The notes: generated from the sequence alone by a model not told the origin. A stretch of DNA of 64,000 nucleotides from Gammaproteobacteria bacterium (GCA_028818225.1 JAPPOG010000003.1:24572-88571), one strand, 5' to 3'; shown: positions 5,495 through 37,754, counted from the stretch's first letter. Program-made: numbers and translations.

Positions 5495-6472
5495 ATGACA
5501 AGAATACGGCTTACTCTGCTGATTGTGCTCACCGCACTGAGCTCAATCGCCCTGGCACAGGCAGTTGAAGTACCGCGCACAGAATATGGTCATCCTGACT
5601 TGCAGGGCACCTATACTTTCCGCACCATCACGCCATTGCAACGACCGGCGGAGTTGGCAGACAAGCCAACCCTCACGCGGGAAGAAGCCGCGGAATGGGC
5701 GGCTTTTGAGAATAACCGCCAGAATCGGGATCTTATTATCGACTCGGTAGGCGGTGCCGGCTATCCGCCCGGCGTAATTTCCTATAACGAATTCTGGTAT
5801 GAGCGCGGCACCGACACGGTGGGGGACTTCCGCACTTCACTCATTTACGATCCGCCCAATGGCAGATTGCCGCCCCTGAGCGAAATTGGCAGGGAGCGCG
5901 CTGCCTATACGCAACAAGTCCGAAGAGAAAGCGCCGGACCGGAAGCGCGTACCTTGAACGATCGTTGCATTATTAACAACCGTTCCGGACCACCCATGGT
6001 ATCCGGATCTTATAACAACAATATGCAATTAGTTCAGAATGAAGATTACGTGATGATCATGACGGAAATGGTTCATCACGCGCGTATCATTCCTTTTGCT
6101 GACGAACATGGCAGAGCCCATTCCCAATGGACTGGTCATTCCGTTGCCCGTTGGGAAGGTGACACACTGATAATCAGTACCCAGGATTTTTATCCTGACT
6201 ATGGCTGGCGCAATACTTCTCCACAGATGAAAATCGAAGAGCGCATTAACTGGATTGATGAGAATACCCTCAACTACGAATTCACGGTGGACGATCCCAA
6301 TACCTGGGAAACCACCTGGTCAGCCCGAGTGCCGATGCGCCGCATGGATGATCGAATTTTTGAGTTTGCCTGTCATGAAGGTAATCACGGACTGGCAGGA
6401 ATTTTAGCTGGCTGGCGCCGCTGGGAAATGGAAGGAAAGAATGAAGGGCATATTCCATCGGTTGATGATTAA
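5495..6472 (+). CDS. Secreted protein, unnamed conserved domain (paralogue A of the family also at 31735-33486 and 33562-34392)
   Basis: GGAG lies 6 nt upstream of the ATG. Sec signal 'LLIVLTALSSIALAQA'. Shared motifs with the paralogues: HPDLQGTY, NDRCIINN, GHSVARWEGDTLII, LNYEFTVDDPNTWETTW, FEFACHEGNHG. Confidence 0.85.
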   Translation: MTRIRLTLLIVLTALSSIALAQAVEVPRTEYGHPDLQGTYTFRTITPLQRPAELADKPTLTREEAAEWAAFENNRQNRDLIIDSVGGAGYPPGVISYNEFWYERGTDTVGDFRTSLIYDPPNGRLPPLSEIGRERAAYTQQVRRESAGPEARTLNDRCIINNRSGPPMVSGSYNNNMQLVQNEDYVMIMTEMVHHARIIPFADEHGRAHSQWTGHSVARWEGDTLIISTQDFYPDYGWRNTSPQMKIEERINWIDENTLNYEFTVDDPNTWETTWSARVPMRRMDDRIFEFACHEGNHGLAGILAGWRRWEMEGKNEGHIPSVDD

Positions 6473-6520: not shown

Positions 6521-7339
6521 ATGGATCGACGCAAATTCATGCAAAACGCAGCCGCTGTAGCGGCAGCTTCTTTCACTGCAGATATGACATTAAGTCAGCG
6601 TGCTGAAGCTTTTGAAGGAGTGATGATTGAGGGACTGCCCTATCATTTCGCCACGTCGCCAATCTGCGAACCAGATCGAGAGCGATCGATGGCTCCTCCT
6701 GGCAGCAATATCGGTCCAGGTGGCGCACCAACTTCCAAATTAATGGCAGGTATGCATGACCCGCGCCTTCCGCCAATGCCAGAAAAACCTACTCTGCTTG
6801 ATTTCTATCGTTATCGAATCCCTAATCCATCCCATCTTCTGCAAAGTGCAAACTACGCGATGCAAAATAATATGGACGAAAAGGTAATCATGGCGTGTTT
6901 GCTACATGACATTTCTGTGGAGGGATTCATACGCACCGATCATGGATTCTGGGGCGCACAACTGGTGGCACCTTATGTTGATGAAGAAGTGGCCTGGGCG
7001 ATTCAGAAACATCAGGCCCTGCGATTCTTTGCTGATGATTCAGTTGGCTATGACTACCCTGCTGTTTATCGCGAATGGTTCGGCATGGATTATGAAGTTG
7101 AGCCCTGGGTACGAGCTGAATATGAGGAAGCAAGAAATCACCGCTGGTACATGAGTGCGCGATTAATTACCTTAAATGACCTCTATTCATTTGACCCCAA
7201 TGTTACTGATATTGAAATCGATCAATTTGAAGATGTGGTCGGAAGAAATTTCAAGCAACCTAAAGAAGGACTAGGTTTCGATGGATCAGCCGTGGCACAT
7301 ATGTGGCGCACCATGATCTGGCCGAATAGCTGGTTATAG
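6521..7339 (+). CDS. TAT-signal protein with HD-domain-like metal-binding motifs
   Basis: The N-terminus 'MDRRKFMQNAAAVAAASF' fits the twin-arginine consensus. 'PSHLL...MACLLHDISVEG...TDHGFWG...AIQKHQALRF' gives the H...HD...H...H spacing of HD-domain proteins. Confidence 0.6.
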   Translation: MDRRKFMQNAAAVAAASFTADMTLSQRAEAFEGVMIEGLPYHFATSPICEPDRERSMAPPGSNIGPGGAPTSKLMAGMHDPRLPPMPEKPTLLDFYRYRIPNPSHLLQSANYAMQNNMDEKVIMACLLHDISVEGFIRTDHGFWGAQLVAPYVDEEVAWAIQKHQALRFFADDSVGYDYPAVYREWFGMDYEVEPWVRAEYEEARNHRWYMSARLITLNDLYSFDPNVTDIEIDQFEDVVGRNFKQPKEGLGFDGSAVAHMWRTMIWPNSWL

Positions 7340-7373: not shown

Positions 7374-7886
7374 ATGAAGCAACGTAACTGCCTTATATTC
7401 TTTGCGTCACTGTTATCAAGTCTGACATTTAACGCATCAACATTTGGTCAGGAGCTGACAGCAGCTGAAAGAGCACTTATCGAAGCAGAAGCGCAGCGTC
7501 ATGTTGAGTATTACTACGATCTCTACTACGAAAGGAATCCAGAGGCACTTGCTACAGAAGTATTCACTATTCCGTGGTACATCATGGGAGGAAACGGCAT
7601 TATCGCCTACTCGACCGAGCAAGAAAATTTGCAGTATTTTTCCTCAGCTATTCAAGGTCTGCTAGAACGCGGTTGGGACAAATCTACTTTCAGAACTGCA
7701 AACGTTTGTGTCTTGGGCGCAGGTTCTGCGATTGTCAGTGGTACCAACACTCGTTCTCGAGCGGACGGCAGCATCATGTCAGTCGGCGGAGTTTCTTACA
7801 TACTCGGCACGACAGATGCGGGCTGGCGCATCATTTCATTCTCAAGCCATTCGCCTGACAAAGTAGTTCGCTGCGCAGAAGAGTAA
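7374..7886 (+). CDS. Small secreted protein, possibly NTF2-like/SnoaL-like fold
   Basis: 170 aa with Sec signal 'LIFFASLLSSLTFNASTFG'. The size and alternating pattern are compatible with an NTF2-like protein, but I see no diagnostic motif. Confidence 0.6.
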   Translation: MKQRNCLIFFASLLSSLTFNASTFGQELTAAERALIEAEAQRHVEYYYDLYYERNPEALATEVFTIPWYIMGGNGIIAYSTEQENLQYFSSAIQGLLERGWDKSTFRTANVCVLGAGSAIVSGTNTRSRADGSIMSVGGVSYILGTTDAGWRIISFSSHSPDKVVRCAEE

Positions 7887-31185: not shown

Positions 31186-31244
31186 TAAAAAGACAGGGTC
31201 AGGGCAGAAATACATCAAGGTATTTCTGCCCTGACCCCTTTTTA
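31186..31244 (-). terminator. Strong intrinsic terminator (usable in both orientations)
   Basis: Perfect 18-bp stem GGGTCAGGGCAGAAATAC / GTATTTCTGCCCTGACCC (31196-31213 / 31220-31237) with a 6-nt loop. There are T5 runs on both sides: the minus strand reads UGUCUUUUU after the stem. It lies just downstream of the stop at 31260. Confidence 0.85.
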
Positions 31245-31259
31245 CTCTTTACGTCCTAC

Positions 31260-31691
31260 TTACTGTTCGGTTGGATCAGCACCATCAAGTGGCGCGCCGG
31301 TCCCGGATGAGCCGGCAAAGAGTCGACGGCCATCAGGGAATGTCACTTCCCTGCCATTGGCTTTATTAGTGCCATCGATTGCGCGATAACCCTGAACAAC
31401 TAATTCGATGCCCGGGATTACGGAATCTTTGCGCCAGCCTCTTCGAACTAATGCACCCGGAGGACCGGCTTCAATCATCCACACTTCTTCCTCACCATCG
31501 TCGTTAACCACGCCAAGATGCAGCCAGGCATGGGGATTAATCCACTCCATTCGCACAACCTTGCCACGCAAATTGATTGGCTGAGTCGAATCGAATTCAC
31601 CTGAGAAAGCATGGTGCGCCTGTAGCGTTGTAAAGGCAAAGAGAGACATGCCCATGGCACCAATTACACTGATTAGTAATCGCATTCGCAT
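31260..31691 (-). CDS. Small secreted protein, predicted mature N-terminus His-His (DUF6152-like, tentative)
   Basis: The start is trimmed to ATG 31691 (GAGG about 8 nt upstream), so it no longer overlaps the upstream gene. Signal 'MRMRLLISVIGAMGMSLFAFTTLQA', then 'HHAFSGEFDSTQPINLRGKVVRMEWINPHAWLHL'. Confidence 0.75.
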   Translation of the reverse strand: MRMRLLISVIGAMGMSLFAFTTLQAHHAFSGEFDSTQPINLRGKVVRMEWINPHAWLHLGVVNDDGEEEVWMIEAGPPGALVRRGWRKDSVIPGIELVVQGYRAIDGTNKANGREVTFPDGRRLFAGSSGTGAPLDGADPTEQ

Positions 31692-31734: not shown

Positions 31735-33486
31735 CTATTCCTGATAGTCAGCTTCTTCAGCTTCACGTGCATCAAGTGTACGTGCGGCACTTAAAGTATT
31801 CGTCATACCGTAGTTACCTTCGTGGCATGCATACTCAACTAACTCATACTGACTGTCGTCTCTGATGAAATTGAACATGCCAGTCCAGGGCTCAGTCCAT
31901 ACAGCCGGATCCTCCACGGTAAATTCATAACGTAAAGTATCTGGACCGATGCGGGTAAACCGTTGGGTTAGCTTCATATCTTCGCTTGAACCAAGATAGG
32001 AAGTTCTGCCGTTCAGGTTTCTCACTTCAACTACCAGCGTGTCGCCTTCCCAACGTCCGTGGGAATCACCCAGCCAGGTCTTAAGTCCGTCACCAAAACC
32101 TTCTCGTGGTTCAGTAGAAATGACTCGTGTTTCATGAATCATTTCCTTTTGTATGGCGATATTGCCCGGGCTCTGGATGATCTGCAGACCATTGTTGTAA
32201 ATGCTGGGCATCATCATGCCTACCGGTCCGCGGGTAATACAACGTACGTAAGTACCTAAATCCACCGGTGTTCTCGCTCTTTGCGGCGGAATTCTTGGCG
32301 GCGCATTGGCTGCCAGTTGTTTATAGGCTTCAGTGGTTTCCGGCAACTGGCCATTAGGCGGATCGATTACCATGGCGGCCTGGGTGGAAGGCGCCGATCT
32401 TACATAGCCGAGAGTAGTATCACGCCATTCCCGATCGTAACCCCAGATGCTATTTAAGGTACCCCTTTCACGACGTGCGGCGGCTTCTTCCGGAGTAAGT
32501 TCTCCTGCTTCGCCAGCACCAACGCCACGTTGTAAAGGAATGCCATGCGCCGCGTCGGCGGTCCAGATACCCTGAAAATCTGGTTCACCCCAGGGTGTGC
32601 GCGGCACTACGTACAGTTCTTCAGAATCACTTGAGTCTGCAATGAAGACTTCTTCTTCAATGCCTGCCCAACCCGGTTCAACCACAGCGATCATGACACC
32701 ATCAGGCCCAAGAATGAACGCTTGATTGACCTCGGAACGTGCCCCTTCTGGCACCATGGGTTCCTGCATAAATTCAACATTAAGCTGATTCATTTGTGCT
32801 GCGGCCGCACTCAAATCTGCAACCTGAAAACCAATATGATCGATTGTGCGGCCCTGGGTAATTCCTGGTCGACCATCAGTGAAGAGGCTGGCAAGTACCC
32901 AGATGTCGCCAAAGCGAACGCCGTCTAACATTCCCTTGAGACTTTCCCGCTCACCACCTAATACCTGGTTATACCAGTCAAGTGCTGCAACCGGATCTAC
33001 CGAATTCAGATGGATGTGATGAAAACCAATTACGGCCTCATCCTGCACCAACTCAATTTTGGTTCCCCAGGGATCGGTAATAAACGCAATCTTGAATAAA
33101 CCGGGAATATCACGAACGAGAGCACCGTCGTCGAAACGAATTAGTCTGACTCCGGAACCACGAACACCAACGGATTCCAGTTCAGCCATTTTTGCGTCGA
33201 GGTCTTCAACAGAAAATCCGATGTGATCCACAGCAGATCCCTGACTGCCGCCAACGGTGCGACCCACGAAAAATTCAATATTGGTATCACCACATACAAC
33301 TGCATCATTGCGATCTATGACACGTTCACAATCCAGGTATTCTTCATACCAGCTGACAGCTTCGTTGGTACTGGAAAGTGCAATCTGAATGTGGTTTGGC
33401 TCAGCAGCATTAACTGCAAATGGAATTACCATTGCTAACGCTGATATTAACTTAAAACTTACTTTATAAATGGAGCGACACTTCAT
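31735..33486 (-). CDS. Secreted fusion: two VOC (glyoxalase/extradiol-dioxygenase-fold) modules + unnamed conserved domain (paralogue B)
   Basis: ATG with GGAGG 8 nt upstream and a Sec signal. VOC modules: 'VDHIGFSVEDLD...AFITDPWGTKIELV' and 'FHHIHLNSVDP...IDHIGFQVADLS...FILGPDGVMIAVVE'. The C-terminal ~300 aa align with 5495-6472: 'VVPRTPWGEPDFQGIW', 'GDSHGRWEGDTLVV', 'LRYEFTVEDPAVWTEPW', 'VEYACHEGNYG'. Confidence 0.85.
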   Translation of the reverse strand: MKCRSIYKVSFKLISALAMVIPFAVNAAEPNHIQIALSSTNEAVSWYEEYLDCERVIDRNDAVVCGDTNIEFFVGRTVGGSQGSAVDHIGFSVEDLDAKMAELESVGVRGSGVRLIRFDDGALVRDIPGLFKIAFITDPWGTKIELVQDEAVIGFHHIHLNSVDPVAALDWYNQVLGGERESLKGMLDGVRFGDIWVLASLFTDGRPGITQGRTIDHIGFQVADLSAAAAQMNQLNVEFMQEPMVPEGARSEVNQAFILGPDGVMIAVVEPGWAGIEEEVFIADSSDSEELYVVPRTPWGEPDFQGIWTADAAHGIPLQRGVGAGEAGELTPEEAAARRERGTLNSIWGYDREWRDTTLGYVRSAPSTQAAMVIDPPNGQLPETTEAYKQLAANAPPRIPPQRARTPVDLGTYVRCITRGPVGMMMPSIYNNGLQIIQSPGNIAIQKEMIHETRVISTEPREGFGDGLKTWLGDSHGRWEGDTLVVEVRNLNGRTSYLGSSEDMKLTQRFTRIGPDTLRYEFTVEDPAVWTEPWTGMFNFIRDDSQYELVEYACHEGNYGMTNTLSAARTLDAREAEEADYQE

Positions 33487-33561
33487 GGTGCGAACCTCCG
33501 CTTGGTTAGTCTTCTATTCTTTTAATTAACTAAAAATTTGTCTTATCTAAATAAGTCGATT

Positions 33562-34392
33562 CTATTCTTCTGATTCTTCTCGCTTCATTAAATGGCCATA
33601 CAAAATCTCTTCCGAGAACTCGACACATTTGTATTCTATGACACGTGCGTTTGGTTCCAGCCTTCTATACAAAGGCATACGAATCTGCCAGGGGCGGGAA
33701 AACACGGTTGGGTCTTCAATAGTTGCTTCGTATAACATGGCGTCGGGACTGATAGGTGTGTAACGCTCGGTTACTACCAGATTGCTACTGGCAAAATTGC
33801 CGGCACGATCGAACCAGGCTTCACCGTTAAATCCGCGGGCATCAACAACTAAAGTATTACCTTCCCAATGACCATGGGAGCGACCCATATAGGTATCCAA
33901 TGGGGCCGGTTCCGGGTTTTCTACATTCATATGAATGGTGCGATTCGCCTCGGCGAACCCATAGACAATCATGATCTTGTCGGTGCCCTGCAGTATCTGA
34001 AACGGATAAGGCAGGTAAGTGGCACGTGGCACACCAGGCAGATAGCACTTGGTTTCGGGATCACCAGTCGGCCTGCTTTCCCAATTAGCTTGTTTCTGTT
34101 CCAGGGCAGAAGCCAGATAAGGAATTTCTCCACCTACCACAACCCCCTGGCCGGGCGGCACCGCACCAATCGCGCCCATTTCCGGCAGACCCGCGCTGGC
34201 TTCATGATCCTGCAGGTCCCAGTGGGCAGTGCCAATGGCCTGCCAGACACCATTAATATCGGGATTACCATCCCAGGCTTCTTGCGGATCGTAGTTGCCG
34301 ATTTCCTGGGCCATAACTGAAGTGCTCAACAGGAAAGCAGCAAGAAGTGCCTTGAGAGGAAGGAAAACAGTGGGCTTAAGTCGTATTACCAT
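33562..34392 (-). CDS. Secreted protein, unnamed conserved domain (paralogue C)
   Basis: Sec signal 'LLAAFLLSTSVMAQE'. Motifs 'NPDINGVW', 'ETKCYLPG', 'GRSHGHWEGNTLVV', 'MLYEATIEDPTVFSRPW' and 'IEYKCVEFSEE' parallel paralogues A and B. Confidence 0.85.
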   Translation of the reverse strand: MVIRLKPTVFLPLKALLAAFLLSTSVMAQEIGNYDPQEAWDGNPDINGVWQAIGTAHWDLQDHEASAGLPEMGAIGAVPPGQGVVVGGEIPYLASALEQKQANWESRPTGDPETKCYLPGVPRATYLPYPFQILQGTDKIMIVYGFAEANRTIHMNVENPEPAPLDTYMGRSHGHWEGNTLVVDARGFNGEAWFDRAGNFASSNLVVTERYTPISPDAMLYEATIEDPTVFSRPWQIRMPLYRRLEPNARVIEYKCVEFSEEILYGHLMKREESEE

Positions 34393-34527
34393 TAGCGAGC
34401 CCCTTCATTATTATTGTTGGAATTAAGGAATTAATCCCTTCGATTTTCCCAGCTAGTGTGGAGAGGGTCAAGCGGCTTAAGCATCCGAATTAACTGGCTT
34501 TTACTCCAAATTCATCAAGTGGAAGCA

Positions 34528-34815
34528 CTAACTTTGCGACCTGCTCTTGAATACAAAATTGCGGAAAAGAATTGTAATCAGCACAAATAAGGAAATAAGC
34601 GGGTAGACACTAATGAATATGATGAGTGCAAAGATTAGGAGCACGAACATTGGATTAGTTACATTGTTAATAAGTACCAAATCCAGGTTGGCGTCTACAG
34701 TCAATATACCGCTAATAAGCGAGATTGCTCCAATTAATAGAAGGACAAGTAAAAACACTCCCCACCACTTCATGAAACGGTTGGTTTTTTGAAAGCATTG
34801 TTTCAGCGTATTCAA
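34528..34815 (-). CDS. Small hydrophobic membrane protein, AT-rich gene (hypothetical)
   Basis: 95-aa ORF with a TTG start (or internal ATG at 'MKWWGVF'). It has 2-3 TM segments, is markedly more AT-rich than its neighbours, and is separated from the upstream operon by a terminator. Confidence 0.4.
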   Translation of the reverse strand: MNTLKQCFQKTNRFMKWWGVFLLVLLLIGAISLISGILTVDANLDLVLINNVTNPMFVLLIFALIIFISVYPLISLFVLITILFRNFVFKSRSQS

Positions 34816-34825
34816 AATTTAATCC

Positions 34826-34866
34826 CCTAAAAGAAAAAGGCCAGAGTAACAATTACCCTGGCCTCT
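34826..34866 (-). terminator. Rho-independent terminator of the molybdoenzyme operon
   Basis: On the minus strand the stem is AGGCCAGGGTA / TACTCTGGCCT (34838-34864, one G-U pair), followed by TTTTTCTTTT. It lies 20 nt after the stop at 34884. Confidence 0.7.
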
Positions 34867-34883
34867 TATTCCAGTTACAGCGG

Positions 34884-37154
34884 TTAAGCTACGTCACCAG
34901 TCTCTTCAACGATAGTATTCAGATCGAAGTTGTTAATTGGTAACTGTCGAACCCGAACACCGGTGGCATCGAATACGGCATTGGCTAATGCGGGACCGAT
35001 GCCAGGAGTACCAGGCTCACCGGCACCACCAATAGCATGCCCACTGTTGATTACATGGGTTTCGATTTCAGGTGCCTGATTCATTCTTACCGATGGGTAG
35101 TCATGGAAGTTTGATTGCTCTACCGCACCATTTTCGATGGTGATCTCACCGTGCAGTGCAGCAGTTAGTCCATAAATTATGCCGGACTCCAATTGCGCTG
35201 CGATACCATCAGGCGCAACCGCCAAACCCGGATCGATTACAGCAACCACGCGATCCACTGCAACTTCACCGTCTTCAATCGTCACTTCAACCACCTGGGC
35301 AACGAGTGAGCCAAAAGACTCTTGCAGAGAGATGCCGCGGCCACGACCAGCCGGAAGTGTTCTGTTCCAGCCAGCTTCTTCAGCGGCTCTGGTTAACACT
35401 GCCAGGTGTCGAGGGCTGTCCTGCAGAAGTTCGGCGCGGAACTCGAATGGGTCTTTTTCCGCCGCATGGGCAGCTTCGTCAATAAATGACTCGGTGAAGA
35501 ATCCATGTTGAGAATGATCCACACTGCGCCATGCACCAAACGGAACATGAGCAGGACTGCTTACATATCCAATATCCTGCGCAGGAACTGCATAAGGAAT
35601 TAAAGGTGCCTCGATTGGTTCGTTCTTGTTGGTGTAAGTGTTTTCCCAGGCAAGCAGATTATTGTCCGAGTCGAAGGCAGCACGGAAGCGACTCTGTACT
35701 GCAGGACGGTAAAAATCCTGACGCACATCTTCCTCCCGCGACCAGATAAGTTGCACAGGCCGCCGGACTAATTGGGAAATTTGTGCTGCCTGAATCGCAT
35801 AATCAGGGCGTGCCTTACGACCAAAGCCGCCACCCATAGCATGGTTATGCAGAGTAACAGCCTCTTCGTCCAGGCCCAGAATTAGCGCTATATCACGGCG
35901 AAATCCCAGCGGATTTTGACAACCGACCCAGACTTCCGCCTTACCATCGCGTACATCTGCAGTTGCATTCAACGGCTCCATGCACGTGTGAGCAAGATAG
36001 GGTACGTGATAGTCGGCATCGATGACTTTCGCTGCGCTCGAGAACAATGAACCGGCGTCACCCTGGACACGATCAGTTTGCCGTTCTGTTTTTGCAGTAA
36101 TGTCGCGATCGAATTGGGCAAAGATGTCATCGCTGGAAGTTGATTCAAAGCCAGTTTCGGTCCATTCGACTTTGATTTCCTGTAATGCCCGATTAGCAGT
36201 CCAGTAGCTGTCGGCAACAACTGCTACCGCTTCCCCTGAAATAGTGCCGCCGAGCATACTTTCCACGGTCGATTCCGGAACGATTACGACGTCGACAACA
36301 CCTTCCATGGCCCGTGCTGCACCTGCATCAATGCTGGCGATGCCACCACCAGAAACCGGTGAGCGCATAATCGATGCATAGAGCATGTCGGGAACACGCA
36401 CATCCAGGGCAAATTCCAGGGAGCCATCAACCTTTGCCGGAATGTCATGGCGAGGTTTATGGGTACCTACGATTTTATATTCAGAAGGATCTTTAAGTGT
36501 TGGTGTTTGAGAAGGAGTCATCTCCGCAATCGTTGCGGCAAAAGTGGCGTATGGCTCTCTTCTGTTAGTAGCTGCATGAATCAGATGACTGTTTTCCGTA
36601 GTAATTTCGCTTACCGGAACACCCCAGGAACTTGCCGCCGCTTCCTGCAACATCTCCCGAGTTGCGGCACCGGCAATACGCATTGCCAATGTTCCAGTGG
36701 TCCGCACACTCATGCTGCCACCGGTAATTTGCATGTTGAGGGAATCCGCAACACGCATCATGGCGCCATCTACCGTTGGAATTAAGATTTCCGGAAAGTC
36801 GATGCCGGCGAGTAGATAGCCGCGACCCGCAGAATAGGTAGAGTATTCACCTATGGCTGGCGCTTCCTCTGTTAATAAATTATCCCAGTCAGCATCGAGT
36901 TCTTCTGCCAGCATTTGACCCAAGGCAGTTTGCACACCCTGTCCCATTTCGGAGTGAGGAATAATTGCAGTAATTGTGTTGTCAGAGTCGATTCTGACGT
37001 AAGAGTGAACTAATTGGCCGCCCTCGTCTCCTAATTTGCCGGCCAGGTCTTTAACCTGGTTGCCGGGACGCATGGCGACACCAACGACAACTCCGCCGCC
37101 AGCGACTAAACCAGTTGTTATGAATGCGCGTCTGGTCCACTTACCCATGATCAA
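34884..37154 (-). CDS. Molybdopterin-binding large subunit of an aldehyde-oxidase/xanthine-dehydrogenase-family enzyme (IorB-type), TAT signal
   Basis: '[22 protein letters not shown]' is a twin-arginine signal. At 756 aa, with 'GGGFGRK' and '[18 protein letters not shown]' near the C-terminus, it is typical of IorB-like subunits. It overlaps the small-subunit gene by 14 nt. Confidence 0.85.
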
Positions 37155-37683
37155 CCTCCTCAGCGCTATTTGTCACGCTTTCGCTGTCCACACTTGCTAC
37201 GTTATAGAAGAGTTTGTCTTCTGACGACGCAACATCGACTGCTTTGATGGCATTACGAATGCGCCCGTACATACCGCAGCGACAAATATTGCCTTGCATG
37301 GCTGCGTCGATGTCGGCATCAGTGGGATTAGGATTGCTGGCAAGCAATGCTGAGGCTGACATGATTTGTCCTGATTGGCAGTATCCACATTGTGGCACCT
37401 GGTGATCAATCCAGGCTTGCTGCACTGGATGCAGTTCTCCAGACTGCGAGGATAATCCTTCGATAGTCGTCACGTCTCTGCCTTCTACTGAAGAAATGGG
37501 CGTGACACAGGAACGTATAGCCTGGCCATCGATATGGACGGTGCAAGCACCACACTGGGCGATACCGCAACCAAATTTCGTTCCCGTGAGCGCCAGTTGC
37601 TCACGAATAACCCACAGCAACGGCTTGGAGGGATCCACGTCCACTGTCTGCTGTACGCCATTAACTCTAAAAGTCGTACTCAT
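37141..37683 (-). CDS. [2Fe-2S]-binding small subunit (IorA-type) of the same oxidoreductase
   Basis: '[12 protein letters not shown]', '[10 protein letters not shown]' and 'NICRCGMY' form the two 2Fe-2S cysteine clusters. ATG 37683 (GGAG 6 nt upstream) is preferred over the track's TTG 37695. Confidence 0.9.
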
Positions 37684-37754
37684 CAAATTCTCCAACTGTT
37701 AAATCAGATTGAATTCATTTTCAGCCTGGTCTGTTGATATTGGATGAATATTAC

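What the first reader, a model, noticed from the sequence alone, without database searches (positions are those of the whole stretch)
31735..34392. Unnamed secreted domain family (three paralogues in the window), one copy fused behind two VOC metalloenzyme modules
Seen: ORF 33562-34392 (276 aa), the C-terminal ~300 aa of ORF 31735-33486, and ORF 5495-6472 (325 aa) align by eye end to end. The domain starts with HPDLQGTY / EPDFQGIW / NPDINGVW. There is a mid-domain Cys: NDRCIINN / YVRCITRG / ETKCYLPG. The core block is GHSVARWEGDTLII / GDSHGRWEGDTLVV / GRSHGHWEGNTLVV. Next comes LNYEFTVDDPNTWETTW / LRYEFTVEDPAVWTEPW / MLYEATIEDPTVFSRPW. The C-terminal motif is FEFACHEGNHG / VEYACHEGNYG / IEYKCVEFSEE. 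All three proteins have Sec signal peptides, and the two conserved Cys would suit a periplasmic disulfide. I cannot assign the domain to any named family. In 31735-33486 it is fused directly after two VOC (glyoxalase/extradiol-dioxygenase-fold) modules. That is a Rosetta-stone hint that the domain works with metal-dependent ring-cleavage or isomerase-type chemistry outside the cytoplasm. The two adjacent copies form a tight minus-strand operon with the His-His protein at 31260-31691, closed by a perfect 18-bp terminator. The neighbourhood is aromatic-flavoured: a lignostilbene-dioxygenase-like CCO and a benzoylformate-decarboxylase-like ThDP enzyme.
Basis: partly seen in the sequence, partly recalled or inferred. 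Interest (0 to 1): 0.7.

Follow-up and report, generated by a model that had tools for sequence, protein, structure and literature searches.

The report
Unnamed periplasmic barrel family, metal-linked cassette
The three look-alike proteins belong to a very large secreted protein family that no database names. Two of them form a gene cassette, conserved across phyla, with a small protein that starts with two histidines, and related cassettes often sit next to metal-permease-type membrane genes, so the family probably handles a metal in the periplasm rather than breaking down aromatic compounds.

Summary
ORFs 5495-6472 (A), 33562-34392 (C) and the C-terminal half of 31735-33486 (B) are homologous (BLASTP E 7e-39, 2e-21, 1e-12). 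They match nothing in Pfam, NCBIfam or the PDB. A profile finds about 25,000 clusters (50% identity), mainly marine Gammaproteobacteria and Acidobacteriota. Two AlphaFold models resemble FABP/lipocalin-type beta-barrels only weakly (best Foldseek E 1.7e-3). Both Cys are near-invariant.

The family has two types. The long type (A, B) carries R157/H194/H294/N297, residues kept or lost as a block. The short type (C) lacks them.

The order short type, long type, DUF6152 recurs across phyla: 53 of 68 DUF6152 genes have a family gene directly upstream. Mature DUF6152 begins with an invariant His-His. DUF6152 loci are enriched for tandem DUF6644 membrane genes or HupE/UreJ_2 permease genes (23/97 against 2/67). 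The VOC fusion is a conserved but minority variant. The CCO and ThDP genes lie outside the operon and are not conserved neighbours.

Best reading (confidence about 0.4): a periplasmic barrel protein with a His-based site that works with an N-terminal-His metal-binding partner. Function is inferred, not shown.

The parts
5495..6472 (+). Protein A (325 aa). Stand-alone long-type family member. Signal peptide ends at AQA|V. Carries the full R157/E191/H194/H294/N297 site and the Cys158/Cys293 pair.
33562..34392 (-). Protein C (276 aa). Short-type member and first gene of the cassette. Signal peptide ends at VMA|Q. Keeps the Cys pair, R197, Y261, D267 and E295. Lacks the ~35-residue insert, and has Gly, Glu, Val and Ser at the positions equivalent to E191, H194, H294 and N297.
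31735..33486 (-). Protein B (583 aa). Signal peptide, two VOC domains, then a long-type family domain. Second gene of the cassette.
32632..33402 (-). VOC (glyoxalase/dioxygenase-fold) half of B, residues about 29-285. Candidate metal ligands are conserved in the B subfamily: H32 and H88 in at least 90%, E145, H156/H157, H217 and E270 in at least 98%.
31738..32619 (-). Family domain of B, residues about 290-583, with the full His-bearing site (key residues read C-E-H-R-Y-D-E-C-H-E-N).
31260..31691 (-). DUF6152 protein (143 aa), third gene of the cassette. Signal peptide ends at LQA|HH, so the mature protein begins His-His. A third invariant His lies in W-I-N-P-H.
31195..31238 (-). Intrinsic-terminator-like hairpin (18-19 bp stem, 6-nt loop, T-run) that closes the C-B-DUF6152 unit and separates it from the CCO gene.
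34443..34471 (-). Promoter-like site (TTGACC, 17 nt, GAAAAT, with TG) upstream of C. This is a weak consensus match only.
   Evidence: The region has 4 such sites where shuffles give 6.8, so it is not significant on its own.

Best explanation
The shared domain defines a very large, unnamed family of Sec-exported periplasmic proteins.

Its core is predicted to be an up-and-down beta-barrel of the calycin (FABP/lipocalin) kind. It has a G-x-W first strand, a helical insert and a C-terminal helix. The helix is probably stapled to the barrel by the conserved Cys158-Cys293 pair.

The long type (A, and the C-terminal half of B) carries a polar site made of R157, H194, H294 and N297, usually with E191. 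I infer that this site binds a transition metal or a metal-bound ligand. The short type (C) has lost the site and probably acts as a non-binding partner of the long type.

In the operon, C and B would work with DUF6152. Signal-peptide cleavage exposes a His-His N-terminus on DUF6152, the hallmark of histidine-brace-like metal chelators. DUF6152 would capture the metal in the periplasm and hand it on. In many relatives the cassette lies next to HupE/UreJ_2 permease genes or paired DUF6644 membrane genes, which suggests exchange of metal with the inner membrane. In B the barrel is fused to a VOC domain that also keeps its metal ligands.

Shown here: homology, family size, the two types, the block-wise loss of the site, the gene order and the enrichment of membrane partners. 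Inferred: the fold, the disulfide, that the site residues cluster in space, metal binding, and the direction of any metal transfer.
For: Family and fold:
- Homology and lack of any name.
- Family size of 25,074 clusters at E <= 1e-3.
- Two independent AlphaFold models (pLDDT 75 and 79) show eight consecutive strands. Their top Foldseek hits are FABP-type barrels (CRABP2, CRBP4, SAHS; probability up to 1.0, TM up to 0.58 on the target).
- G38 is 96% conserved and position 40 is aromatic in 97%.

The site:
- Cys158, Cys293 and E295 are present in 219 of 223 domains.
- Over E191/H194/H294/N297, 128 domains keep all four, 36 keep only E191 and 18 keep none. R157 is lost along with them. R197, E249, Y261 and D267 stay universal.
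- R157 and H294 are the sequence neighbours of the two Cys.

The cassette:
- The order short type, long type, DUF6152 occurs in Gammaproteobacteria, Acidobacteriota and Gemmatimonadales.
- 53 of 68 DUF6152 genes have a family gene directly upstream.
- DUF6152 has invariant H26 and H27 immediately after an A-x-A site, plus N52-P53-H54, E32 and D34.
- DUF6644 pairs or HupE/UreJ_2 genes occur in 23 of 97 DUF6152 loci against 2 of 67 family-only loci (odds ratio 10, p 2.5e-4).

Precedents from the literature:
- A conserved N-terminal His exposed by signal-peptide cleavage chelates metals, and N-terminal-His domains on HupE/UreJ-2 permeases capture metals: PMC12537917.
- The histidine brace becomes functional only after cleavage: PMC10952591.
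- ZinT/AdcA-C is a lipocalin-like barrel with a three-His zinc site: PMC7858048.
- VOC ligand conservation in B.
Against: - No metal binding has been measured, and no model coordinates were available, so the clustering of the site residues is inferred from strand topology only.
- No Foldseek hit reaches E <= 1e-3. There is no similarity to ZinT (hhalign probability 0.3%).
- About three quarters of the long-type genes sampled are solitary, with no DUF6152, permease or regulator nearby.
- Genomes carry many paralogues (up to six family genes in 17 kb, L043). That pattern is more typical of substrate-diversified enzymes or binding proteins than of metal chaperones.
- The window's own cassette has no DUF6644 or HupE gene.
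- Importing metal to the cytoplasm would not obviously serve Sec-exported proteins.
- The loci are not phylogenetically independent and my gene calling was crude.
Confidence: 0.4

Rival explanations
1. The barrel is a substrate-binding or catalytic module for metal-dependent ring-cleavage or isomerase-type chemistry on hydrophobic or aromatic small molecules (lignin-derived aromatics, stilbenoids, apocarotenoids) in the periplasm. It presents the substrate to the VOC domain or another metal centre.
For: - The VOC fusion is ancient and conserved, with its ligands intact.
- The weak structural hits are retinoid and fatty-acid binders.
- A CCO lies next to the window cassette and near two related cassettes, L054 and L035.
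- Other fusions are to Lipocalin_5 and squalene-cyclase-like repeats.
- Many paralogues share an invariant polar site, which fits enzymes with one chemistry and many substrates.
Against: - The CCO is separated from the cassette by a strong terminator and has no signal peptide.
- No aromatic-catabolic family is enriched among 150 plus 81 neighbours.
- VOC is fused in only 2 of 31 DUF6152-seeded cassettes.
- The L054 CCO is a close orthologue, so that synteny is not independent evidence.
Confidence: 0.2
2. A non-metal carrier or envelope protein. The barrel would bind a lipid, a cofactor or another hydrophobic periplasmic ligand, like Blc or LolA-type carriers. The conserved polar residues would recognise a head group, and the link to DUF6152 would be incidental to metal.
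For: - Calycin-like prediction and G-x-W motif.
- Conserved R197, E249-R250 and Y261 on barrel strands recall the Arg/Tyr carboxylate clamp of FABPs (my own knowledge, untested).
- Most copies are solitary.
Against: - The block-wise loss of two His, one Asn and one Arg, the tight coupling to an N-terminal His-His protein and the enrichment of permease-type neighbours are not explained by this reading.
- No lipid-trafficking genes were found among the neighbours.
Confidence: 0.15
3. A membrane-coupled periplasmic redox module. The paired DUF6644 proteins would be small haem- or metal-binding inner-membrane proteins that pass electrons to DUF6152 and the barrel proteins, in the way MsrQ serves MsrP. 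The cassette would then be an oxidoreductase rather than a metal transporter.
For: - DUF6644 genes occur as tandem pairs beside DUF6152 in 17 loci.
- Their predicted helices carry conserved His and Glu residues.
- Histidine-brace copper centres are redox-active in LPMOs (PMC10952591).
Against: - DUF6644 is uncharacterised and gives only sub-threshold hits to other small membrane families.
- In six loci HupE/UreJ_2, a permease family, takes the same position.
- The window has no such membrane gene.
Confidence: 0.1
4. A cysteine hydrolase. Cys158 (or Cys293) would be a nucleophile acting with H294 and N297 as a papain-like Cys-His-Asn triad.
For: Cys, His and Asn are all near-invariant in the long type, and the Cys is preceded by a conserved Arg.
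Against: - Both Cys are kept in the short type, which has lost His and Asn. That fits a structural disulfide better than a nucleophile.
- The location is the oxidising periplasm.
- There is no fold or sequence resemblance to any cysteine peptidase.
Confidence: 0.05

Closest known systems
Calycin superfamily barrels (FABP/CRABP/CRBP, lipocalins, SAHS)
   Same: A predicted run of eight antiparallel strands with helices. G-x-W motif on the first strand. These barrels are the top Foldseek hits for two independent models.
   Different: No sequence similarity. The proteins are about twice the size, with a long N-terminal segment, a helical insert and a C-terminal helix. They have a conserved Cys pair and a His/Asn/Arg site, and they are periplasmic bacterial proteins. 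No Foldseek E-value reaches 1e-3.
ZinT/YodA and the AdcA C-terminal domain (lipocalin-like periplasmic zinc binders)
   Same: Periplasmic location, a barrel scaffold carrying a His-based site, and (in ZinT) a His-rich mature N-terminus straight after the signal peptide. This is the same idea as in DUF6152.
   Different: No detectable homology (hhalign probability 0.3%). ZinT is not among the top 50 Foldseek hits. The ligand residues and their positions differ.
Histidine-brace and N-terminal-His metal binders (CopC, YcnI, LPMOs, DUF4198, DUF6702, Ang-1/Ang-2 on HupE/UreJ-2)
   Same: DUF6152 has an invariant His as the first mature residue plus a second conserved His and acidic residues. Some cassettes neighbour HupE/UreJ_2 proteins that themselves start with His.
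   Different: DUF6152 matches none of these families and is mentioned in no searchable paper. It has His-His rather than a single His. Its fold could not be modelled here. It is coupled to two barrel paralogues, which none of the known systems has.
VOC superfamily (glyoxalase I, extradiol dioxygenases, methylmalonyl-CoA epimerase, FosA)
   Same: The N-terminal half of B is a bona fide member with two Pfam domains and conserved His and Glu ligand positions. It aligns with human glyoxalase I around His126.
   Different: It is Sec-exported and fused to the barrel domain. It falls far below every NCBIfam equivalog cut-off, so its substrate is unknown.
CopC-CopD / YcnI-YcnJ copper import
   Same: A periplasmic N-terminal-His protein encoded beside small polytopic inner-membrane proteins rich in His.
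   Different: DUF6644 gives only weak sub-threshold hits to DUF2214 and UPF0093. That those two families are CopD-like is from my memory and was not tested. No CopC or CopD model matches.

Membership tests
VOC superfamily (Pfam PF00903 / PF13669) - N-terminal half of B | Match to the family HMM above the gathering score | tested here: met
   PF00903 scores 60.9 bits (cut-off 20.6) and PF13669 scores 39.7 bits (cut-off 27).
VOC superfamily - N-terminal half of B | Conserved His/Glu metal ligands on the paired beta-alpha-beta-beta-beta modules | tested here: inconclusive
   In 121 B-type sequences, H32 and H88 are conserved in at least 90%, and E145, H156/H157, H217 and E270 in at least 98%. H217 aligns with glyoxalase I His126. 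The geometry and metal binding were not tested.
Any characterised VOC enzyme (glyoxalase I, catechol 2,3-dioxygenase, FosA and others) | Score above the NCBIfam equivalog cut-off | tested here: not met
   The best hit is TIGR00068 at 44.5 bits against a cut-off of 120.
DUF6152 (PF19649) - ORF 31260-31691 | Match to the family HMM above the gathering score | tested here: met
   102.7 bits against a cut-off of 27, E 1.2e-29. NCBI also names it a DUF6152 family protein.
Calycin / FABP / lipocalin fold - shared domain | Closed 8-10-stranded antiparallel barrel similar to solved members | tested here: inconclusive
   Both models show eight consecutive strands. The top hits are FABP-type (probability up to 1.0, TM 0.47-0.58 on the target), but the best E-value is 1.7e-3 and none reaches 1e-3.
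Calycin / FABP / lipocalin fold - shared domain | G-x-W motif on the first strand, and a basic residue at the end of the last strand (the signature as I recall it) | tested here: inconclusive
   G38 is 96% conserved and position 40 is W/Y/F in 97%. Position 283 is R or K in only 66%.
Lipocalin / FABP sequence families (Pfam) | Match to any Pfam lipocalin or FABP model | tested here: not met
   No Pfam family at E <= 1 for A or C, and none for the C-terminal half of B.
ZinT/YodA | Detectable sequence or profile homology | tested here: not met
   hhalign of the family profile against E. coli ZinT gives probability 0.3%. ZinT is absent from the top 50 Foldseek hits.
Histidine-brace-like N-terminal-His metalloproteins - DUF6152 | His as the first residue after signal-peptide cleavage, conserved across homologues | tested here: met
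   H26 and H27 are invariant in 21 sequences and directly follow an A-x-A site. The cleavage site is predicted from the sequence pattern, not measured.
Histidine-brace-like N-terminal-His metalloproteins - DUF6152 | A second conserved His or acidic ligand, and actual metal binding | not testable with these tools
   H54 (in N-P-H), E32 and D34 are invariant or nearly so. Binding needs biochemistry.
HupE/UreJ-2 'anglerase' metal-uptake systems | A HupE_UreJ_2 permease encoded with the N-terminal-His protein | tested here: not met
   Such a gene lies next to DUF6152 in six related loci (Pfam E 7e-53 and 3.5e-47), but none is in the window.
Anti-phage defence systems (PADLOC) | Match to any PADLOC model | tested here: not met
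   No hits for A, B, C or DUF6152.

The most novel reading that the evidence does not exclude
The cassette of short barrel, long barrel and DUF6152, with or without a fused VOC domain, and with or without paired DUF6644 or HupE/UreJ_2 membrane proteins, would be a previously unrecognised and widespread periplasmic metal-acquisition or metallo-oxidase system of marine Gammaproteobacteria and soil Acidobacteriota. The barrel family would be a new metal-binding or metal-dependent catalytic fold family. Its hundreds of solitary paralogues would be client proteins of one shared chemistry.
Probability: 0.3. Interest if true: 0.8.

Novelty: new variant of a known kind. Interest (0 to 1): 0.66.

Why it matters
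- This is one of the larger protein families with no model in any curated library: about 25,000 clusters at 50% identity.
- It is abundant in organisms that dominate carbon turnover in the open ocean (the Pseudohongiella and SAR86 lineages) and in soil (Vicinamibacterales, Bryobacterales).
- Its link to DUF6152, DUF6644 and HupE/UreJ_2 turns four 'unknowns' into one testable system. It also gives a concrete first experiment: metal binding by the mature His-His protein and by the long-type barrel.
- If the metal reading holds, it would add a new component to the N-terminal-His metal-capture systems described only recently. It would also bear on how oligotrophs acquire or use trace metals.
- If the reading fails, the conserved, block-inherited polar site still marks the family as a good target for structure and function work.

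Tried and rejected
Searches with the shared domain that found nothing:
- Pfam and NCBIfam at E <= 1.
- PDB by single sequence and by profile.
- PADLOC.
- Foldseek against the PDB for two models gave nothing at E <= 1e-3.
- hhalign of the family profile against ZinT gave probability 0.3%.

DUF6152:
- The PDB profile search returned only spurious ribosomal hits.
- No paper mentions DUF6152 or DUF6644. DUF6152 is also absent from the supplements of the signal-strapping paper.

Neighbourhood ideas rejected:
- TonB receptors, CCO, ThDP enzymes and aromatic catabolism are not enriched.
- The genes next to A (Tat-signal HD-domain protein, NTF2-like protein, EamA) have no homologues beside other family genes.

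Other points:
- The apparent long N-terminal extensions in L018, L019 and L021 have no Pfam content. They are probably stop-to-stop read-through artefacts in high-GC DNA.
- My first greedy ORF caller failed in high-GC loci. I replaced it with HMM searches of all stop-to-stop ORFs.
- A cysteine-hydrolase reading was considered and rated unlikely, because the His-less short type keeps both Cys.
Full report
**1. Observation**

The four ORFs exist as described.
- A is 5495-6472 (+), 325 aa.
- B is 31735-33486 (-), 583 aa.
- C is 33562-34392 (-), 276 aa.
- D is 31260-31691 (-), 143 aa.

BLASTP gives these pairwise results:
- A against B: 33% identity over 305 aa, E 7e-39.
- C against B: 31% over 205 aa, E 2e-21.
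- A against C: 27% over 128 aa, E 1e-12.

A family HMM covers all three nearly from end to end, and these are the only three copies in the window. C differs from A and B by a deletion of about 35 residues and by lacking the His-containing motifs.

B has two VOC Pfam domains in residues about 30-270, and D is DUF6152 (E 1.2e-29).

A hairpin with an 18-19 bp stem and a T-run lies at 31195-31238, between D and the CCO gene. A second terminator-like hairpin (34835-34867) follows the upstream molybdoenzyme gene. C, B and D therefore look like a single transcription unit that excludes the CCO.

All four proteins have N-termini that look like Sec signal peptides with A-x-A sites. About 95% of full-length homologues pass a simple hydrophobic-run test. 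This is a heuristic, not SignalP.

**2. The family is real, very large and unnamed**

The shared domain has no hit in Pfam or NCBIfam at E <= 1, none in PADLOC, and none in the PDB by sequence or by profile.

Word-indexed searches returned more than 7,000 hits for A, more than 3,000 for B and about 8,000 for C. Where a source names them at all, it calls them 'hypothetical' or, for B, 'VOC family protein'. A profile of all three subfamilies, scored against 1.84 billion representative proteins, found 25,074 clusters at E <= 1e-3 and 12,400 at E <= 1e-10.

Named genomes that carry the family are marine Gammaproteobacteria (Pseudohongiella, including the cultured P. nitratireducens, SAR86 and Pseudomonadales MAGs), Acidobacteriota (Vicinamibacterales, Bryobacterales, Thermoanaerobaculia, Holophagales) and Gemmatimonadales.

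The window's own proteins are identical to entries from a marine Gammaproteobacteria MAG. Those entries are annotated as hypothetical, VOC family and DUF6152 family proteins.

**3. Fold**

I made two independent AlphaFold2 models: A (pLDDT 75, pTM 0.75) and C (pLDDT 79, pTM 0.76). Both show the same layout:
- a short first strand that carries the P-D-x-x-G-x-W motif;
- helices;
- eight consecutive antiparallel strands;
- a C-terminal helix.

No Foldseek hit against the PDB reaches E <= 1e-3. For both models, however, the top hits are mostly small up-and-down barrels of the FABP and calycin kind. They include CRABP2, CRBP4, bile-acid-binding protein, tardigrade SAHS, NanoLuc, streptavidin and nitrophorin. 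Probabilities reach 1.0 and TM-scores on the target reach 0.49-0.58.

G38 is 96% conserved and position 40 is aromatic in 97% of representatives. As I recall, G-x-W on the first strand is part of the calycin signature. A basic residue at the end of the last strand is present in only 66%.

I treat the calycin-like fold as likely but not established.

**4. Two types and one block-inherited site**

In 150 representatives that are no more than 50% identical to each other, the following residues (numbering of A) are conserved at 87-100%: R157, C158, E191, H194, R197, E249, Y261, D267, E290, C293, H294, E295 and N297.

In 223 domains taken from fetched loci, C158, C293 and E295 occur together in 219.

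Presence or absence over E191/H194/H294/N297 falls into a few patterns:
- all four present: 128 domains;
- only E191 present: 36;
- none present: 18;
- only H194 missing: 20.

H194, H294 and N297 are therefore lost together in 54 domains, and R157 is lost along with them. R197, E249, Y261, D267 and the Cys pair remain universal.

Residues that are inherited or discarded as a block most simply form one functional site. R157 and H294 are the immediate sequence neighbours of C158 and C293, so a C158-C293 disulfide would bring them together. By strand topology, the loop between strands 2 and 3 (E191, H194) and the exit of strand 8 (E290 to N297) lie at the same end of an up-and-down barrel. Both of these points are inference, because the tools gave me no model coordinates.

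A and B are 'long type', with the site and the insert. C is 'short type', with neither.

**5. A conserved cassette**

The short type followed by the long type followed by DUF6152, all on one strand, recurs widely:
- in Acidobacteria;
- in Gammaproteobacteria and Gemmatimonadales;
- with and without the VOC fusion.

In Acidobacteria further B-type copies follow in tandem.

I ran the reciprocal test on 80 metagenome loci seeded on DUF6152.
- Of 68 DUF6152 genes with at least 300 nt of upstream sequence, 53 have a family gene directly upstream.
- Of 31 with at least 2.2 kb upstream, 20 have two or more family genes.
- Only 2 of those 31 carry the VOC fusion.

Typing by position shows a pattern. 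The gene just upstream of DUF6152 has the full site in 29 of 54 cases. The genes one or two positions further upstream are mostly short type. Of 121 solitary genes, 87 have the full site together with the insert, and another 5 have the full site in other arrangements.

**6. The DUF6152 partner**

In 21 DUF6152 sequences the two residues that follow the A-x-A cleavage site are invariably His-His, in the motif HHAFxAEFD. N52-P53-H54 is invariant, and E32 and D34 are nearly so.

The literature supports a metal-binding reading. A conserved His exposed as residue 1 by signal-peptide cleavage is a natural metal chelator. It was used to discover Ni-, Cu- and Co-binding families, including N-terminal-His domains attached to HupE/UreJ-2 permeases (PMC12537917). 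The histidine brace becomes competent only after cleavage (PMC10952591).

DUF6152 is not mentioned in that paper, in its supplements, or in any searchable paper. Its fold could not be modelled here.

**7. Membrane partners**

A census of genes flanking whole cassettes found DUF6644 in 8 of 81 and HupE_UreJ_2 in 3 of 81.

A full search gave a clearer picture.
- DUF6644-like genes lie beside DUF6152 in 17 loci. In most of these they form a tandem pair of about 185 and 157 aa; in a few short contigs only one copy is visible.
- HupE/UreJ_2 genes lie beside DUF6152 in 6 loci. The three read in full begin with His after their own signal peptides.
- One of those six loci is L054, a gammaproteobacterial cassette that also has a close homologue of the window's CCO.

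In total, 23 of 97 DUF6152-containing loci (638 kb) have such a membrane gene, against 2 of 67 family-only loci (1,005 kb). The odds ratio is 10 and Fisher p is 2.5e-4.

DUF6644 is uncharacterised. It gives only sub-threshold hits to DUF2214 and UPF0093. That these are CopD-like families is my recollection and was not tested. The window itself has no DUF6644 or HupE gene.

**8. What is not conserved**

The nearest neighbours of family genes in 64 genomes (150 proteins) matched 108 Pfam families, and none occurred in more than three proteins.

The window's CCO, ThDP enzyme, DUF819 protein, DAO oxidase, molybdenum aldehyde-oxidase-like enzyme and TetR regulator are therefore local context. A CCO recurs only in L054 (a close orthologue) and L035 (a distant one).

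The genes beside A have no counterparts next to other family genes.

**9. The VOC half of B**

It is a bona fide VOC domain pair. In 121 B-type sequences H32 and H88 are conserved in at least 90%, and E145, H156/H157, H217 and E270 in at least 98%. H217 aligns with the metal ligand His126 of human glyoxalase I. No characterised VOC equivalog comes close to its cut-off.

It is thus a probable exported metal-binding VOC module of unknown substrate.

**10. Interpretation**

The data fit best a periplasmic, disulfide-stapled barrel family whose long type carries a His-based site. In the cassette it would work with a site-less paralogue and an N-terminal-His metal-binding protein, often next to permease-type membrane proteins.

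I put about 0.4 on this metal-handling reading. ZinT and AdcA-C are functional precedents for a lipocalin-like barrel with a His metal site (PMC7858048). There is, however, no homology to ZinT (hhalign probability 0.3%).

Several things count against the reading:
- most copies are solitary;
- genomes carry many paralogues;
- the window has no permease gene;
- no biochemistry exists;
- my neighbourhood statistics are not phylogenetically corrected.

Comparative context does not support it for the family as a whole. Other rivals are a non-metal carrier (0.15), a membrane-coupled redox module (0.1) and a cysteine hydrolase (0.05).

**11. Novelty**

The domain belongs to no named family, and the cassette has not been described. 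In kind it resembles the recently described N-terminal-His metal-capture systems and barrel-type periplasmic metal binders. I therefore rate it a new variant of a known kind. I give roughly 0.3 to the chance that it is a genuinely new periplasmic metal-acquisition or metallo-oxidase system.

Noticed in passing
window 6521-7339 (+) and 7374-7886 (+): Directly downstream of A lies a 272-aa protein with a twin-arginine-type signal (MDRRKFMQ...) and a weak HD-domain match (E 2e-4). After it comes a signal-peptide-bearing NTF2-like DUF6841 protein. An exported HD-domain protein is unusual. No homologue of either was found beside other family genes.
   Followed up: partly
window 34884-37154 (-) and 37141-37695 (-): The large subunit of a molybdopterin aldehyde-oxidase/xanthine-dehydrogenase-type enzyme has a Tat-like N-terminus ([11 protein letters not shown]). 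With it is a 2Fe-2S small subunit. The pair ends in its own terminator-like hairpin at 34835-34867, just upstream of the cassette.
   Followed up: no
window 34528-34815 (-): A 95-aa strongly hydrophobic ORF with no Pfam hit lies between the molybdoenzyme terminator and gene C. It is unclear whether this is a real small membrane protein.
   Followed up: no
L043 1-16834 (MAG of Candidatus Rariloculaceae): One 17-kb stretch holds at least six family genes and three DUF6152 genes, including two complete cassettes in tandem. This is an extreme local expansion.
   Followed up: no
L094, L121, L131, L132, L138, L154 and others (17 loci): DUF6644 genes lie beside DUF6152, in most loci as two adjacent paralogues of about 185 and 157 aa. 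Their predicted helices carry conserved HES and ESxHV motifs. The family is uncharacterised and is mentioned in no searchable paper.
   Followed up: partly
L054 95-7549: A gammaproteobacterial relative has a cassette without VOC (short type, long type, DUF6152). It is flanked on one side by a close homologue of the window's CCO (E 7e-221) and on the other by a HupE/UreJ_2 gene.
   Followed up: partly
L037 5162-7370: Upstream of a DUF6152 gene, the two family genes appear as seven short fragments in different frames. These are either decaying pseudogenes or frameshift errors in the assembly.
   Followed up: no
L004 and L173; L005-L008: Several B-type loci sit beside toxin-antitoxin genes (PIN/PhdYeFM, HepT/MNT), McrBC and DruA. 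The setting looks like a defence island. The cassette proteins themselves have no PADLOC match.
   Followed up: partly
P0383 and P0491 (profile-search hits): Other fusions of the family domain exist. P0383 has squalene-hopene-cyclase-like repeats at its N-terminus, and P0491 has a Lipocalin_5 domain at its C-terminus.
   Followed up: no
L174 3376-4026 (E. coli zinT): ZinT also exposes a His-rich N-terminus straight after its signal peptide (AFS|HGHHSHG) and has a D-G-V-W-Q motif that resembles N-G-V-W-Q in protein C. The profile comparison nevertheless finds no homology.
   Followed up: yes
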